Below are positions 1 through 16,770 of a stretch of 41,687 bases of DNA, piece after piece (position 1 is the stretch's first letter; each line of letters starts with the position of its first letter). The DNA is from a virus (Duplodnaviria; Heunggongvirae; Uroviricota; Caudoviricetes). The position numbers and the translations under genes were made by a program. Below the pieces are notes generated by a model, which was not told the DNA's origin, made no database searches, and saw only the letters and a list, made by a program, of their open reading frames with translations. Location of the stretch: IMG/VR virus record IMGVR_UViG_637000104_000001, one strand, 5' to 3'.

Positions 1-3091
<3,091 letters not shown>

Positions 3092-3102
<11 letters not shown>

Positions 3103-6545: not shown

Positions 6546-6752
6546 TTAGTGATTCAGGCCGTTGCCGCGTCCGTCGAGAAAAACTTCCACGAGCAAGTCA
6601 CGGGTATAAGTGCGCTCGATGCCGCGATGCAGATAAAGCCGTCCGCGTAAATTAGCTGATGCAGTCCAGGTACCATCTTTGTGTTTGACCAGCATTCCTG
6701 GCATGACCGCACCGCGATTAACGGTCTGTGTTCCGTAATGTTGATGAACCAT
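6546..6752 (-). CDS. Small protein in the kil position (68 aa from the Met with a strong AGGAG RBS)
   Basis: Part of the 136-aa ORF 6546..6956; the internal ATG at 6750-6752 is preceded by AGGAG with a 6-nt spacer. It is the first gene upstream of gam in transcript order, where lambda has kil. Identity with Kil is not verified. Confidence 0.4.
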
Positions 6753-7029
6753 AAAAACTCCTGCCCGTAAGCTGGGCTGCTGAACATATAGAGACTTCTG
6801 CGCGTATTCAGGCGGTGGATGGCCGCCGGTTGTCATAACTAAACCGCCTCGTTGAAGCGACTGAGGTATGAAATGTTGAGTTAATTTCAGCTGGTCACAC
6901 CGACGTTCACGCGTCCGTTTCACCCCTCGCACTCCCCGAAGCCTGCTGAAATTCAAACTGCGGATCTAAGCGGTCATCGCAACGGTGAATCAGGTGGTTG
7001 CCGTATCGTTGTGTTGTTGCGATATGGTG

Positions 7030-7074
7030 ATAATAGCTATTGCTATTGGTGATATCAATACTTATTGCTATTGG
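7030..7074 (-). promoter_or_regulatory. Putative oL/pL: leftward sigma70 promoter (TTGATA-17-TATTAT) overlapping repeated operator motif
   Basis: Minus-strand reading gives TTGATA (7058-7053), a 17-nt spacer, then TATTAT (7035-7030). Motif ATTGCTATTGG occurs at 7039-7049 and 7064-7074, and related copies occur in the cI-cro intergenic region. Confidence 0.5.
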
Positions 7075-7195: not shown

Positions 7196-7223
7196 CAAAA
7201 GAAAACCCGGCACGGTGGCCGGG
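7196..7223 (-). terminator. Intrinsic terminator after the cI-operon cargo genes (tImm-like)
   Basis: Hairpin CCCGGC-ACGGTG-GCCGGG (7206-7223), followed on the minus strand by TTTTCTTTTG; lies just 3' of the ASCH ORF stop. Confidence 0.65.
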
Positions 7224-7227
7224 ATTC

Positions 7228-7605
7228 TTACGCAGGTAGGTAAAGATATGATTGTGGTGGCTTAATATTACTACCTAGAGCAGAGATAGGAATTGGTTCT
7301 TTATATCTTTCCACTTCACCAATTTTTATTGCGTAGGCCTTTTCTCTACCTGAATAATATGAGTCATAAAATTGCTTAGAAATACCTGCGTGTTTTTCCG
7401 TCTTTTTCCAAAGAGATTCCGGTTCGTCACTTAGTATTGATTCAATACGGAATTGACCAACAACTTTACCTAATGGCATCGTGGCATAAATAACAACGGT
7501 GCTAATTTGCGGATTTTTGAATATACCTTTACGAAACTCGAACCGCTTTGTTCCGTTCAATATTTTTTCTGCAAACTCAGGCTTAATGGATAATAAAACT
7601 TTCAT
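7228..7605 (-). CDS. ASCH-domain protein (PUA-like fold), 125 aa
   Basis: N-terminal MKVLLSIKPEFAEKILNGTKRFEFRKG resembles the ASCH signature (..SIK..wAe.I..G.K..E.R); overlaps the upstream ORF by 23 nt. Confidence 0.6.
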   Translation of the reverse strand: MKVLLSIKPEFAEKILNGTKRFEFRKGIFKNPQISTVVIYATMPLGKVVGQFRIESILSDEPESLWKKTEKHAGISKQFYDSYYSGREKAYAIKIGEVERYKEPIPISALGSNIKPPQSYLYLPA

Positions 7606-8656
7606 TTATCTTGCCTAACTCGATGATCTTTAAGAACTGCTCATTTGTGAGTTTAAAGTGACTCCATCGGAATGCACGCGAACCATTTAGCCCCACATGA
7701 TCTATTAAAATAGCACGATTGGGTCTCTTTGGCAAAGACAGATTGTATGTGAATCTTATAATGAAAGGGTATCGACGTTCTTTATAGATTTTTCTGAGTT
7801 CATCTTCAGAAAATACGCTAAAACGAATACAATAGTCTACAAAACTATCTTCGCTTAAAAATTCAGAAATATTTTTTACGCTCTCAACTACACATAATGT
7901 ACTGGCTACAGAACGATAGCGAGCTGGCCCTTTTTTGTCTCCGGTTCTATAGATGACAATGATATCTCCTCTTTTCATTCCCATCACAGAACGCATTCCA
8001 CATATGTAAATTTTATGAATGCTGTTAGCATGGGATATATCTTTGACAATATCTGGTGATTCATTTACAAGTTTTGAATCAGGGAATAGTCTAGTGTGAT
8101 ATTCGGGATAAATCGCCAGTAAATATTTGTTGGCCCTTGATGTCATTATTCGAGGGTAATCTAATAAAATATCACCATAAGGCTCATGCAAAGACCTCGC
8201 ATATACAAACTCTTTCCCGTTATGTGTTTCTTTTTCACCATGAATGTAAAATCCGTACGTTTGGAAAAGTTTTATTAGATGGACGTGTTTGTCGAAAACA
8301 GTAACATAAATATCATCAGATTTTGATGAAAATGCATGGTCAAACGCTTTTTTTAGAAATCGTTGTCCGCGAAGGGTGCCTTTAGATTCAAATTTGAATG
8401 TTCCTATCTTTAGATGACGTCCTGGTGGGAGCGCTGGATTAATGTCATTTGCATCATCATTTTCTTTTAGATACATAAAACCTTCGATTTTATGCTTGTC
8501 ATCATAGAGCACATAAGCTGATTCTCCTTCTCTGGCTTTTTTTTCTAACCAAAGAGGAAACTCTTTATAATCTTTTTTTAAAGAGTCAAAAAATGGGTCA
8601 TTGTGATCAAAATCAGAGAATTTCTCATATTTTAAAGTATCCATTAAGTTCTCCAT
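7583..8656 (-). CDS. GNAT-like acetyltransferase-fold protein with unassigned C-terminal domain, 357 aa (alternative start at Met5)
   Basis: N-terminal half has GNAT-like elements (LKIGTFKFESKGTLRGQRFLKKAF; LIKLFQTYGFYIHGE resembling the a..LY.k.GF motif). Sits directly downstream of the repressor gene on the same strand. Fold assignment is from motif reading only. Confidence 0.45.
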   Translation of the reverse strand: MENLMDTLKYEKFSDFDHNDPFFDSLKKDYKEFPLWLEKKAREGESAYVLYDDKHKIEGFMYLKENDDANDINPALPPGRHLKIGTFKFESKGTLRGQRFLKKAFDHAFSSKSDDIYVTVFDKHVHLIKLFQTYGFYIHGEKETHNGKEFVYARSLHEPYGDILLDYPRIMTSRANKYLLAIYPEYHTRLFPDSKLVNESPDIVKDISHANSIHKIYICGMRSVMGMKRGDIIVIYRTGDKKGPARYRSVASTLCVVESVKNISEFLSEDSFVDYCIRFSVFSEDELRKIYKERRYPFIIRFTYNLSLPKRPNRAILIDHVGLNGSRAFRWSHFKLTNEQFLKIIELGKINESFIIH

Positions 8657-8724: not shown

Positions 8725-9453
8725 CTATCCATGCTTCCTATACGTCTGCGGCATGCTCCCAATAACTTTCCCGAAGATAAATACCCGGTTCATCTCATCT
8801 TTCTCGATCGGGTCCCACGGTGAGTAGCTTTTGTTATCAGAGATAACCAGCAGCTTATCCTTCATCATTTGCAGGCGCTTTACATGGGCTGTGTCGTCGT
8901 ACAGAAACGCATAGATACCATCACCGTCGAAAGATTTAACCGTGATATCAACGAATAGAAGATCACCAGGTTCAATCGTTCCTGACATGCTGTCACCGCG
9001 TACGTTAATGATGCGGATATTTTCTGCCTTCCTACCATCGAACATGTGACGAGCATCGTCAAACGAGTACTCAACCGAGCGTAGAACTTCTACAAACTCA
9101 CGGTTGATGACTCCCGGCCCGGCACTCACTTCTATATCAAGAACGTCAATTTTAAAGTATTTGGAATAGCTGACAGCAGGCTTCCCTGATTGTTGACCGT
9201 CATTTCTCATCGGGCCTATGCCTGATGAGAGCCATTCTGTTCGAACACCCAATGCATTAGCTATTTCAACAATTTTTGTTGAGCCGCGCGCGTTGCCGCT
9301 TGTCAGTCTCCAGATTGTGGGTTGAGCTACGCCAGACGCCTTTGCAAGAGCGCCTTGAGACATTCCAGATTGTTCCATCGCTAGGTTTAAGCGATCAGCA
9401 AGAGTTTCTTTTTTCATAAGTTTTAATTTATACGCTTGCGTATTGATGGTCAA
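8725..9453 (-). CDS. CI-like prophage repressor (HTH N-terminus + S24 LexA-like autopeptidase C-terminus)
   Basis: HTH region QGALAKASGVAQPTIWRL; S24 catalytic Ser in VRGDSMSG and Lys in HVKRL. Divergent from the cro-like gene. The true start may be the internal Met (MKKETLADRLN). Confidence 0.85.
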   Translation of the reverse strand: MTINTQAYKLKLMKKETLADRLNLAMEQSGMSQGALAKASGVAQPTIWRLTSGNARGSTKIVEIANALGVRTEWLSSGIGPMRNDGQQSGKPAVSYSKYFKIDVLDIEVSAGPGVINREFVEVLRSVEYSFDDARHMFDGRKAENIRIINVRGDSMSGTIEPGDLLFVDITVKSFDGDGIYAFLYDDTAHVKRLQMMKDKLLVISDNKSYSPWDPIEKDEMNRVFIFGKVIGSMPQTYRKHG

Positions 9454-12129: not shown

Positions 12130-12558
12130 TTATTTAGACAAACTATCTAATTTCTGCGTCGCTTTTTGTGTTAGGTCGCTGTAACTGATAAACCCTACGT
12201 TAGCACCTACAATTAACACTAAGAACACTAAGCTGCATATGGATAGAGTGGCAGATTTATGCTTATGGAAAACAAAATATGCTACTATTGCACTTAATAT
12301 GAAGGAAATGAATAGAAATATAGATGTTGATGTTTTTAGATATTTTTCAGGAAATAATGGGTGAGCAATAATGTATACAAGATTAAGTAGTATATAAATT
12401 GCTACCGGAATGAAAATCATGCTCCAGTGTGTATCTTTTTTGGGAGGGATTGGCTGCAAATAATCAGACACCGTTTTTCCATCAGTTTCAAGAAGAATTA
12501 CTAGATCTCTTACTTCACCACTGACTTGAGTGCCATCCTTAGTAGTAATGTTAATCAT
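12130..12558 (-). CDS. Small integral membrane protein (about 142 aa, three predicted TM helices)
   Basis: Hydrophobic segments IFIPVAIYILLNLVYIIA, IFLFISFILSAIVAYFVF and LSICSLVFLVLIVGANVGFI. Start chosen at the ATG forming an ATGA overlap with the upstream stop (12555-12558). Antisense to the replication operon. Confidence 0.5.
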   Translation of the reverse strand: MINITTKDGTQVSGEVRDLVILLETDGKTVSDYLQPIPPKKDTHWSMIFIPVAIYILLNLVYIIAHPLFPEKYLKTSTSIFLFISFILSAIVAYFVFHKHKSATLSICSLVFLVLIVGANVGFISYSDLTQKATQKLDSLSK

Positions 12559-12932
12559 TTTTTCCCTCCAAATACGATTCCCTCTACGTCTTTGGAAGCT
12601 TTTTGTGATGACCACTCCTCTGAATCAGGTGATTTAATTAAAAATATTGTATCTCCATCAAAAATCGTATTTGTTCCGTAAAAATTTACATTTGATAGAT
12701 CACCACCAAAAACCCTCTGCCCACTCGAGGTAATTGCCTCACCTAATTTAGTAAAATTACCTGCAATAGATGATTTTCTTTTTCCACTTCTATTCAAAGT
12801 GGCTTTAATTACACCACCACCATCCTTAGAGTTAAATAATTGAATGTCCACTCCAGCAGTTGGTTGTATATATTTTGAAAGCTCTTTCTTGAACTTGTTA
12901 ATATATTTATCTTTGTTTTCTTTGTTGGTCAT
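12555..12932 (-). CDS. Hypothetical soluble protein, 125 aa, Gly-rich
   Basis: ORF translationally coupled to the downstream membrane protein gene; no recognised motif. Confidence 0.45.
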   Translation of the reverse strand: MTNKENKDKYINKFKKELSKYIQPTAGVDIQLFNSKDGGGVIKATLNRSGKRKSSIAGNFTKLGEAITSSGQRVFGGDLSNVNFYGTNTIFDGDTIFLIKSPDSEEWSSQKASKDVEGIVFGGKK

Positions 12933-15261: not shown

Positions 15262-16344
15262 TTAGAACTGATAAACCAGACCTACAGCGACGATGTCGTC
15301 GGTATCAATACCAGCTGTTTTGGTAAACTTACTATCGTCAATTAAGTTGATTTTGTAATCAACAAAAGTGGACATGTTTTTATTAAAGTAGTAAGTAGCA
15401 CCGACATCGACATACTTGACTAAGTCTCGGTCACCATGAACACCAAGGTCTTTACCTTTTGACTGAAGGTAAGCAACAGATGGACGCAGACCGAAGTCAA
15501 ACTGATATTGTGCTACTGCTTCAAAGTTTTGTGCTTTGTTTGCAATATGGTTATTACCAAAAACGGTCATATTCTGAGTTTCAGAATATGTGGTAGCCAG
15601 ATAGATATTGTTCGCATCATATTTCAGGCCTGCAGCCCATACTTCCGCATTTTTGCCGGAGGCATTGAATTTGCTCTTACCATAGGCGACCTGACCGTCA
15701 GTGCGATCTGATTTAGCATAGGTTGCACCCACGCCGAATCCTTCATACTCATAAGTAGTGGAGAAACCGAAACCATCACCATTGGCTTCAGTTACGTCAG
15801 TGCGGTCATTTTTACCCTGATACTGAGCAGCAAAGTTCAGGCCATCGACCAGACCAAAGAAGTCGTTGTTACGATAAGTTGCAACACCAGTAGTGCGACC
15901 AGTCATGAACACATCTGTTTGGGTCCAGGTATCACCACCGAATTCTGGCAGAACGTCAGTCCACGCACCGATGTCGTATGCTACACCGTAGTTACGGCCG
16001 TAATCGATTGAGCCGTAATCACCAAATTTCAGGCCTGCAAATGCAAGACGGGTTTTGTCTTTGGAAGAACCTTGAGATTCAGCACGGTTGCCTTTGAATT
16101 CATATTCCCACTGACCGAAACCAGTCAGTTGATCGTTGATTTGGGTTTCACCTTTGAAGCCAAGACGGGCATAAGTAGTATCACCATCATCTGCATCATT
16201 AGAGGAGAAGTAGTGCTTGGCATTAACTTTCCCGTATAGATCCAGCTTGTTACTGTCTTTATTATAAATTTCAGCTGCCTGAGCAGACATCGCCATCAGT
16301 ACTGATGCAGCTACAGCAGAAATTGCCACTGTTAATTTTTTCAT
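15262..16344 (-). CDS. nmpC: OmpC-family general porin (NmpC/OmpD-like), 360 aa
   Basis: Signal peptide [30 protein letters not shown] start of the mature protein, C-terminal VGLVYQF beta-barrel signature. Start taken at internal ATG 16344 (the ORF-track start 16404 is upstream of the signal peptide). Confidence 0.9.
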
Positions 16345-16770
16345 TGTACGCCCTTTTTTTGAACTATTATTAAAAAATGATGTCACTGCGCGATAAATAT
16401 TCATCTAATCAATGTGATTATTTCAAGATGTAAGTTTTAGTTTCTCATTTAATTTGTGAAGTAGATCTCTATTTTTATCGGAACCTTTTCTATCTAATCC
16501 TATTCATGGCTCTTGTCTGAACAAAAATAAATCTATTAGCTAATTTATATTAATGGCACTTATTTATAAGTGCTCTATAATTCTTTAGCTTAATTTAAAC
16601 AAACTAAAAATAACATCGGAAATTATTAACTGGTTATTTGTTGAAGTTTTCTTATGCATTTGTGGTGGTGTTTTGAACACTCGGTGGCATTCTCACAAAT
16701 ATCATTTAGTAGTTTACGTACGTAAAAAATTGGTTATGCTGTTAAGAGTGGTTACTTCGTCACACAGCTT

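What the first reader, a model, noticed from the sequence alone, without database searches (positions are those of the whole stretch)
7228..8656. GNAT-like + ASCH two-gene cargo module in the rexAB-equivalent slot downstream of the repressor
Seen in sequence: two overlapping minus-strand ORFs (357 aa and 125 aa, 23-nt overlap) lie between the cI-like repressor gene and a minus-strand intrinsic terminator (7196-7223) that precedes oL/pL. This is the position where lambda carries rexA-rexB, so they are probably co-transcribed with the repressor in the lysogen. The segment looks more AT-rich than the flanking phage backbone (judged by eye). The 125-aa protein has an ASCH-type N-terminus (LSIKPEFAEKILNGTKRFEFRKG). 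The 357-aa protein has GNAT-like motifs in its N-terminal half and an unassigned C-terminal domain. Established: ASCH is a PUA-like RNA-binding fold, and E. coli YqfB (an ASCH protein) is an N4-acetylcytidine amidohydrolase; GNAT toxins acetylate aminoacyl-tRNA; repressor-linked prophage cargo is frequently anti-phage defence. Inference: an acyl writer/eraser pair acting as prophage defence or as a toxin-antitoxin with an enzymatic antitoxin (same logic as DarT/DarG). I do not recognise it as a named system.
Basis: partly seen in the sequence, partly recalled or inferred. Interest (0 to 1): 0.85.

Follow-up and report, generated by a model that had tools for sequence, protein, structure and literature searches.

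The report
GevTA (GNAT-EVE/ASCH) prophage cargo module
The two genes behind the prophage repressor are real and form a widespread acetyltransferase-plus-ASCH pair that is already catalogued (PADLOC PDC-M11) and already deposited under the name GevT toxin/GevA antitoxin, so it is a known candidate system whose chemistry is still unknown.

Summary
Two overlapping minus-strand genes (7583-8644/8656 and 7228-7605, 23-nt overlap) lie between a cI-type repressor and an intrinsic terminator upstream of pL. They form an AT-rich island (35% GC against about 52% in the flanks).

The system is not new:
- Both proteins match PADLOC PDC-M11A/B (E 2e-133 and 7e-52).
- They fit the "GNAT-EVE + ASCH" predicted toxin-antitoxin operons of Iyer 2013 and Bell 2020.
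- They are 100% identical in amino-acid sequence to the "GevT toxin" and "GevA antitoxin" annotated in phage PhiR47_2 (GenBank PV340567.1).
- The module sits in 275 of 5,426 complete E. coli genomes.

New here:
- The ASCH partner is present in 81 of 81 loci across many phyla, with the same 23-nt overlap in 71.
- GevA is at least as conserved as GevT and keeps the ASCH Lys/Glu dyad.
- Single-polypeptide fusions exist, with PIN, TIR or ASCH domains.
- The GNAT is nearest to PaiA, not to the tRNA-acetylating toxins.

Target, neutralisation mechanism and phage phenotype remain untested in anything I could read.

The parts
7583..8644 (-). gevT (PDC-M11A): GNAT-EVE fusion protein, 353 aa from the SD-preceded ATG at 8644. 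The longest ORF starts at 8656 and gives 357 aa.
   Evidence: ORF. PADLOC PDLC04419 at E 2.1e-133 over the full length. phrog_6345 at E 1e-186. 100% aa identity to XSB42874.1 'GevT toxin'. SD and start codon.
8180..8644 (-). GNAT acetyltransferase domain of GevT (residues about 5-159 in 357-aa numbering)
7586..8179 (-). EVE/ASCH-type PUA-like reader domain of GevT (residues 160-357), basic (pI 9.45)
7228..7605 (-). gevA (PDC-M11B): 125-aa ASCH protein with the GxKxxExR motif (G18 K20 E23 R25), pI 9.55
   Evidence: Pfam ASCH at E 2.5e-8. PADLOC PDLC04425 at E 6.8e-52. ZmASCH 5GUQ at E 8e-16 over the full length. Invariant residues. 100% identity to XSB42873.1 'GevA antitoxin'.
7583..7605 (-). 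23-nt gevT/gevA overlap (ATGAAAGTTTTATTATCCATTAA), read in two frames; likely translational coupling
   Evidence: The same 23-nt overlap occurs in 71 of 81 loci across phyla. Sequence.
7196..7223 (-). intrinsic terminator ending the cI-gevT-gevA unit
   Evidence: Stem at 7223-7206 with 6 G-C pairs, followed by a T-run.
8725..9414 (-). cI-type repressor directly upstream on the same strand, separated by a 68-80 nt gap with no predicted terminator
   Evidence: HTH_3 plus Peptidase_S24. Annotated cI in PhiR47_2, with 82% identity. No terminator between the genes.
7030..7058 (-). pL-like promoter with operator-like TATCACC repeats, downstream of the module's terminator
   Evidence: TTGATA, 17-nt spacer, TATTAT: 10 of 12 consensus positions. 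Sequence.

Best explanation
This is the GevT-GevA module (PADLOC candidate PDC-M11; the 'GNAT-EVE + ASCH' operon of Iyer 2013 and Bell 2020). It is carried as AT-rich cargo in the cI-to-pL slot of a lambdoid E. coli prophage. Shown: GevT is a GNAT acetyltransferase fused to a basic EVE/ASCH-type reader domain. GevA is a basic ASCH protein. The two genes are an obligate pair with a 23-nt overlap conserved across phyla. The pair behaves as a self-contained mobile cassette. Inferred: in the lysogen the pair is read through from the cI transcript and stops at the terminator at 7223-7206. Inferred: GevT uses acetyl-CoA to acetylate a nucleic-acid-associated target, selected by its EVE domain, which arrests growth. 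The target could be a modified RNA or tRNA, or a modified DNA base. Inferred: GevA, made in fixed ratio by translational coupling, keeps GevT harmless through its conserved ASCH cleft. It could do this by removing the acetyl mark or by occupying the same ligand. Inferred: a superinfecting phage upsets this balance, giving abortive-infection-type exclusion, which is the role RexAB plays in the same slot of lambda.
For: Identity: PADLOC PDC-M11A/B at E 2e-133 and 7e-52, and 100% aa identity to the deposited GevT toxin and GevA antitoxin. Architecture: GNAT fold, EVE/ASCH fold, ASCH. This matches Bell 2020's description of GNAT-EVE plus ASCH as predicted TA systems common in beta- and gamma-proteobacterial prophages. 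Obligate pairing: an ASCH gene in 81 of 81 loci, with a 23-nt overlap in 71. Functional link: single-chain PIN-GNAT-EVE-ASCH and ASCH-x-GNAT-EVE fusions. Defence flavour: a TIR-GNAT-EVE fusion; PDC-M11 was derived from genes embedded in BREX, DISARM or type I RM systems; and the same phage slot holds unrelated two-gene cargo in sister phages. A ligand-binding or enzymatic role for GevA: it is at least as conserved as GevT (55.1% against 51.2% identity, higher in 60 of 79 loci). Its G18, K20, E23, R25, Y40 and S119 are invariant; these correspond to the ASCH catalytic dyad and to ZmASCH cleft residues. Nucleic-acid binding: pI 9.5 for both GevA and the EVE domain.
Against: I saw no experimental data. 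'Toxin' and 'antitoxin' are depositor labels, and no paper naming GevT or GevA is in the searchable library. PADLOC PDCs were explicitly untested. Co-transcription with cI is inferred only from geometry and the absence of a predicted terminator. The GNAT domain is nearest to polyamine and N-terminal acetyltransferases, not to known toxins. The canonical Q/RxxGxG/A motif is only partly kept. The closest characterised ASCH, ZmASCH, is a solo gene, so its RNase and deacetylase data transfer only through about 35% sequence similarity.
Confidence: 0.6

Rival explanations
1. Writer/eraser version. GevT puts an acetyl group on a base such as cytosine N4 in RNA or DNA. GevA is an amidohydrolase that takes it off, as DarG reverses DarT.
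For: GevA keeps the ASCH GxKxxExR motif with invariant K20 and E23. A 2026 preprint reports that Glu-type ASCH proteins remove ac4C from tRNA and need this Lys/Glu dyad. GevA is more conserved than a typical protein-binding antitoxin would be. Per Bell 2020, Iyer 2013 proposed base acetylation for this architecture.
Against: ZmASCH, the closest studied homologue, was inactive on free ac4C and did not lower ac4C in vivo. It was instead described as a ssRNA ribonuclease. Fusions that put GNAT-EVE and ASCH in one polypeptide would create a futile cycle unless regulated. No acetylated product has been shown.
Confidence: 0.3
2. Reader-competition or direct-inhibition version. GevA shares the fold of GevT's own EVE domain. 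It neutralises GevT without catalysis, either by occupying the same nucleic-acid ligand or by binding GevT directly. The phage trigger releases this block.
Against: Invariance of the catalytic-type dyad K20/E23 in GevA is not needed for simple competition. I have no interaction data, and no complex model could be run.
Confidence: 0.3
3. Not a toxin system. Instead it is a nucleic-acid modification module that benefits the phage, for example anti-restriction through acetylation of phage or host DNA or RNA, as Bell 2020 suggested for phage-borne GNAT-EVE.
For: Bell 2020 raises protection of phages against host RM systems. The EVE neighbours are readers of modified DNA bases: THYN1, VcaM4I and McrB-N.
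Against: The module sits in the lysogenically expressed slot behind cI, not in an early lytic operon. The depositors annotate a toxin and an antitoxin. Relatives are fused to PIN and TIR effector domains.
Confidence: 0.07
4. An ordinary metabolic moron: a PaiA-like polyamine or small-molecule acetyltransferase with an accessory protein.
For: The best sequence match among solved structures is PaiA (E 3.4e-5), and there is a weak NCBIfam PaiA hit.
Against: This does not explain the obligate fusion to a nucleic-acid reader fold and the obligate ASCH partner across 81 loci. Nor does it explain the PIN and TIR fusions or the embedding in RM and BREX loci.
Confidence: 0.03

Closest known systems
GevT/GevA of Escherichia phage PhiR47_2 (GenBank PV340567.1; XSB42874.1, XSB42873.1)
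   Same: Both proteins are 100% identical in amino-acid sequence. The gene order is the same (cI, gevT, gevA, terminator, pL region), and the DNA is 99.2% identical.
   Different: Nothing at the protein level. The cI allele differs (82% identity). I could not find the study behind the names.
PADLOC phage defence candidate PDC-M11 (Payne et al., guilt-by-embedding)
   Same: Both genes match the A and B models over their full length.
   Different: PDC-M11 was seeded from copies embedded in BREX, DISARM or type I RM loci and includes longer PIN-bearing forms (profile lengths 444-501). This copy is the short form in a prophage. The candidate was untested.
(PIN)-GNAT-EVE + ASCH predicted toxin-antitoxin operons (Iyer et al. 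2013; Bell et al. 2020, PMC7641849)
   Same: A GNAT fused to a C-terminal EVE domain, an adjacent ASCH gene, no PIN domain, and location in a gamma-proteobacterial prophage, exactly as described.
   Different: None in architecture. Those papers are computational and left the role of ASCH open.
Zymomonas mobilis ASCH (PDB 5GUQ)
   Same: Full-length sequence homologue of GevA (E 8e-16). It shares the GxKxxExR motif, the Tyr47 equivalent (Y40) and the PPQS Ser128 equivalent (S119).
   Different: It is a solo gene with no GNAT-EVE neighbour. Lys53 aligns with G46 in GevA, with K47 adjacent.
GNAT toxins of type II TA systems (AtaT, TacT, KacT, ItaT)
   Same: GNAT fold, and a two-gene toxin-plus-neutraliser logic.
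Lambda rexA-rexB
   Same: The same genomic slot and the same expression logic: downstream of cI and upstream of the terminator before pL.
   Different: The proteins are unrelated. GevA is a soluble ASCH fold, not a membrane protein.
DarT-DarG
   Same: A possible analogy only: a nucleic-acid-modifying toxin with an enzymatic antitoxin.
   Different: The folds and chemistry differ, and there were no PADLOC DarTG hits.

Membership tests
GNAT-EVE + ASCH operon / PDC-M11 / GevTA | N-terminal GNAT acetyltransferase fold | tested here: met
GNAT-EVE + ASCH operon / PDC-M11 / GevTA | EVE (PUA-like) domain fused C-terminally to the GNAT | tested here: met
GNAT-EVE + ASCH operon / PDC-M11 / GevTA | Adjacent ASCH-domain gene | tested here: met
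   Pfam ASCH at E 2.5e-8. A partner is present in 81 of 81 loci.
GNAT-EVE + ASCH operon / PDC-M11 / GevTA | Both proteins match the PADLOC PDC-M11A and PDC-M11B profiles | tested here: met
   E 2.1e-133 and 6.8e-52, over the full length.
GNAT-EVE + ASCH operon / PDC-M11 / GevTA | Sequence identity to the deposited GevT and GevA | tested here: met
   0 differences in 357 and in 125 residues.
GNAT-EVE + ASCH operon / PDC-M11 / GevTA | GevT toxic alone and neutralised by GevA | not testable with these tools
   Only the depositors' labels are available. No paper was found.
GNAT-EVE + ASCH operon / PDC-M11 / GevTA | Anti-phage phenotype | not testable with these tools
   The PDCs were untested.
GNAT toxins of type II TA (AtaT/TacT/KacT/ItaT) | Specific similarity to the toxin clade | tested here: not met
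GNAT toxins of type II TA (AtaT/TacT/KacT/ItaT) | Cognate DNA-binding (RHH/HTH) antitoxin, encoded upstream | tested here: not met
   The partner is an ASCH protein encoded downstream.
GNAT toxins of type II TA (AtaT/TacT/KacT/ItaT) | Acetylation of aminoacyl-tRNA | not testable with these tools
   This needs biochemistry.
YqfB-type ac4C amidohydrolase | ASCH octapeptide with Thr/Ser (GK[T/S]R subgroup) | tested here: not met
   GevA has G18-x-K20-x-x-E23-x-R25, the Glu subgroup (subgroups as defined). YqfB gave no PDB sequence hit.
ZmASCH-like ASCH proteins | Full-length homology and conserved cleft residues Tyr47, Lys53, Ser128 | tested here: inconclusive
   E 8e-16 over the full length. Y40 and S119 are invariant. 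Lys53 aligns with G46, with K47 next to it.
Lambda RexAB | RexA/RexB homology (RexB is a membrane protein) | tested here: not met
   The PADLOC scan returns only PDC-M11. GevA is homologous to a soluble crystallised protein. Only the genomic position is shared.

The most novel reading that the evidence does not exclude
GevT writes an acetyl mark on a nucleobase of RNA or DNA that its EVE domain selects, and GevA is a dedicated ASCH deacetylase that erases it. That would make this the first toxin-antitoxin or defence system run by reversible nucleic-acid acetylation, and it would give the large ASCH family a physiological partner enzyme.
Probability: 0.25. Interest if true: 0.7.

Novelty: already known. 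Interest (0 to 1): 0.3.

Why it matters
The module is common. It occurs in about 5% of complete E. coli genomes and in more than 1,400 clusters at 50% identity across many phyla, yet no mechanism for it appears in any paper I could read. It sits in a genetically tractable lambdoid prophage. This copy is therefore a convenient handle for asking three questions: what a GNAT fused to a modified-base reader acetylates, what bacterial ASCH proteins are for, and whether acetylation of nucleic acids can serve immunity. As a discovery claim it adds little, because the architecture, the candidate-defence status and even a gene name already exist.

Tried and rejected
1. I searched the literature for GevT, GevA, GevTA, GNAT-EVE and the PhiR phage names. 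I found only Bell 2020 and a Laub-lab SNIPE preprint that uses the PhiR phage panel. That preprint's reference list is not held, so the source of the names was not found.
2. Iyer 2013 (PMC3763556) is not held, so I cite it only through Bell 2020.
3. I had recalled that 'PDC-M' meant Millman et al. candidates. That was wrong: M stands for multi-gene in Payne et al.'s guilt-by-embedding set.
4. I tested whether ZmASCH belongs to a GNAT-EVE operon, which would have let its biochemistry transfer directly. I rejected this: its upstream neighbour is an unrelated secreted protein.
5. I tested whether the 341-aa plus 149-aa overlapping pair in the same slot of PhiR68_2, or the PhiR30_1 pair, are divergent GevTA. 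I rejected this: there is no profile match.
6. Pfam and NCBIfam do not call a GNAT or an EVE domain on the 357-aa protein itself. Relatives P0244 and P0262 do pass Pfam Acetyltransf_1.
7. The afdb50 fold library was unavailable.
8. Rfam finds nothing in the window.
9. Promoter-like sites inside gevT (7735-7707 and 7617-7590) are no more frequent than in shuffled sequence, 9 found against 11.3 expected. I therefore make no claim of an internal promoter.

Full report
**1. Observation**

The window has two minus-strand ORFs, 7583-8656 (357 aa) and 7228-7605 (125 aa), overlapping by 23 nt. Directly upstream on the same strand lies a repressor gene with HTH_3 and Peptidase_S24 domains (8725-9453). 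Directly downstream lies a G+C-rich hairpin with a T-run (7223-7206). A promoter-like site follows at 7058-7030, matching 10 of 12 consensus positions and set among TATCACC-type repeats.

Exo, bet and gam homologues follow further downstream. Cro, cII, O and P lie on the other side of cI. This is therefore the lambda immunity region, and the pair occupies the rexAB position.

GC content is 0.352 for the pair, against 0.52 for both flanks.

One refinement concerns the start codon. The ATG at 8644 has GGAG 6 nt upstream, whereas the ATG at 8656 has no SD, and most homologues are 353 aa. The protein is therefore probably 353 aa.

**2. What the proteins are**

The 125-aa protein matches Pfam ASCH at E 2.5e-8. 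Its closest solved relative is the Zymomonas mobilis ASCH protein 5GUQ, at E 8e-16 over the full length.

The 357-aa protein has no Pfam hit. An AlphaFold2 model built on 32 homologues is confident, with pLDDT 86.8.

- A family profile finds B. subtilis PaiA at E 3.4e-5 among PDB sequences.
- Invariant R96-G97-x-R99 and Y134-G135-F136 sit where GNATs bind acetyl-CoA.

A profile-profile comparison also aligns its first strand and helix (KYLLAIYPEY) with the start of the ASCH partner (KVLLSIKPEF), at E 4e-4. Both it and the small protein are basic, with pI about 9.5.

**3. It is already catalogued and named**

Both proteins match PADLOC's candidate system PDC-M11 over their full length: PDC-M11A at E 2.1e-133 and PDC-M11B at E 6.8e-52. 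PDCs are the untested "phage defence candidates" of Payne et al. They were derived from genes embedded in BREX, DISARM and type I RM loci, and M stands for multi-gene.

Bell et al. 2020 describe exactly this architecture:

- a GNAT fused to a C-terminal EVE domain, sometimes with an N-terminal PIN domain;
- nearly always next to an ASCH gene;
- predicted to be a toxin-antitoxin system.

They credit Iyer et al. 2013 with the first description and with the idea of base acetylation.

In GenBank, phage PhiR47_2 (PV340567.1) annotates the same two genes as "GevT toxin" and "GevA antitoxin". The window's proteins are identical to these at every residue.

The DNA is 99.9% identical in phages 4A7, Lambda_4C10, D2, 1W and 3W. 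It is at least 99% identical in 275 of 5,426 complete E. coli genomes, including strain 536. Each exact protein sequence is seen on at least 1,000 contigs.

I found no paper using the Gev names. The experimental basis of "toxin" and "antitoxin" is therefore unknown to me.

**4. What comparative data add**

A scan of one genome per species returned 80 loci spanning Proteobacteria, Bacteroidota, Firmicutes, Verrucomicrobiota, Acidobacteriota and Campylobacterota.

- **Pairing.** All 80 loci, plus PhiR47_2, carry an ASCH gene beside the GNAT-EVE gene.
- **Overlap.** In 71 loci the overlap is exactly 23 nt, and in 6 it is 29 nt. In four Vibrionaceae or Shewanella loci the ASCH gene is nearby on the opposite strand. 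The overlap sequence ATGAAAGTnTTATTATCnATTAA encodes the conserved end of one protein and the conserved start of the other. This argues for translational coupling and a fixed ratio of the two products.
- **Conservation.** GevA is at least as conserved as GevT: 55.1% against 51.2% mean identity to the window proteins, and higher in 60 of 79 loci. Its invariant residues are G18, K20, E23 and R25 (the ASCH GxKxxExR motif), plus Y40 and P117-Q118-S119.
- **Meaning of those residues.** Y40 and S119 correspond to Tyr47 and Ser128, which ZmASCH needs for RNA binding and cleavage. K20 and E23 correspond to the Lys/Glu dyad. A 2026 preprint finds that dyad essential for tRNA ac4C deacetylation by Glu-type ASCH proteins. 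This pattern suits a ligand-binding or catalytic partner better than a fast-evolving, protein-binding antitoxin.
- **Family size.** An exhaustive search finds 1,425 clusters at 50% identity with E <= 1e-3, in size classes of about 350, 500 and 615 aa.
- **Fusions.** Of 150 representatives, 94 are plain GNAT-EVE and 41 carry an N-terminal extension. Sampled long forms are TIR-GNAT-EVE, PIN-GNAT-EVE-ASCH in one chain, and ASCH-x-GNAT-EVE. The fusions tie ASCH functionally to GNAT-EVE. The PIN and TIR domains are typical of conflict systems.
- **Neighbourhoods.** Flanking genes are heterogeneous. The commonest upstream family is an S24 repressor (6 of 70 loci). Integrases, a relaxase, Fic, N6-methylases and AAA_17 ATPases also occur, and housekeeping genes sit at the edges. 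The pair is a self-contained mobile cassette, and the position behind a repressor recurs in Pseudomonas, Halomonas and Glaesserella.
- **The slot itself.** In sister phages PhiR30_1 and PhiR68_2 the same slot holds unrelated two-gene cargo. It is therefore a variable cargo hotspot.

**5. Mechanism**

*Shown:* the folds, the pairing, the coupling geometry and the location.

*Inferred:*

- The pair is expressed with cI in the lysogen. The genes are on the same strand, no terminator is predicted between them, and a terminator follows immediately after.
- GevT is an acetyl-CoA-dependent acetyltransferase directed by its EVE domain to a nucleic-acid-linked target.
- GevA holds GevT in check through its ASCH cleft.
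- Phage infection releases the toxin, giving abortive-infection-type exclusion.

I put about 0.6 on this overall picture. The identity of the system is near certain.

How GevA neutralises GevT is open. An eraser role and a competition or binding role each get about 0.3. The eraser role rests on the conserved dyad. The competition role rests on the shared fold with GevT's own reader domain, the coupling and the fused forms.

- GevA is not of the YqfB (Thr) type.
- ZmASCH was inactive on free ac4C and had no significant effect in vivo. It is also a solo gene, not part of such an operon.
- The GNAT shows no special affinity to the aminoacyl-tRNA-acetylating toxins.

**6. Verdict**

Its architecture was published in 2013 and 2020. 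It is listed as PDC-M11, and an identical copy is deposited as GevT/GevA. What remains unknown, at least in the literature I could search, is the substrate, the mode of neutralisation and the phage phenotype. Interest is modest: this is a good experimental handle on a widespread uncharacterised system, not a discovery.

Noticed in passing
window 685-3102: An IS21-family element (istA 1464-2486 with rve and HTH domains; istB 685-1467 with IstB_IS21 at E 8e-112) lies next to a 200-aa fragment of a lambda-type integrase, of which only the Arm-DNA-binding domain is clearly present (2500-3102). The prophage int gene appears to be interrupted, so the prophage may be unable to excise. PADLOC calls IstB 'DrmD' at E 5e-96, which looks like a cross-hit of an IstB-like ATPase model rather than a DISARM system.
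   Followed up: partly
window 15262-16404 (-): An AT-rich gene encodes a 380-aa Gram-negative porin (Porin_1 at E 2e-151). It is a prophage-borne outer-membrane porin moron.
   Followed up: partly
window 12130-12932 (-): A second AT-rich island (GC 0.35) lies between the P-like replication gene and the nin region. It has two overlapping minus-strand ORFs of 161 and 125 aa, with no Pfam family above threshold and no PADLOC hit. The 161-aa ORF has a weak 7TM-type hit. This is another unexplained two-gene cargo.
   Followed up: partly
L082 3637-4991 (PhiR30_1); L083 3626-5081 (PhiR68_2): The cI-to-terminator slot of sister lambdoid phages carries unrelated two-gene cargo: 310 + 141 aa in PhiR30_1, and 341 + 149 aa in PhiR68_2. 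The PhiR68_2 pair has a 20-nt overlap and a hydrophobic small protein. Only about 125 nt on the pL side of the slot is shared with the window.
   Followed up: partly
proteins P0244, P0306, P0324 (relatives): The family includes TIR-GNAT-EVE, PIN-GNAT-EVE-ASCH (toxin and 'antitoxin' domains in one chain) and ASCH-x-GNAT-EVE fusions.
   Followed up: partly
L013, L017, L022, L037: In Vibrio, Photobacterium and Shewanella loci the ASCH gene is not overlapping. It lies 30-2,200 nt downstream on the opposite strand, a different arrangement of the same pair.
   Followed up: no
window 6546-6956 (-): The first ORF downstream of the pL-like promoter, where lambda has N, has no Pfam hit. The corresponding gene in PhiR47_2 is annotated 'Kil'. 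No N-like antiterminator was identified.
   Followed up: no
L084 5001-5447: The crystallised ZmASCH ribonuclease is a stand-alone gene lying between a secreted 375-aa protein and argJ/secA. It is not part of a GNAT-EVE operon.
   Followed up: yes
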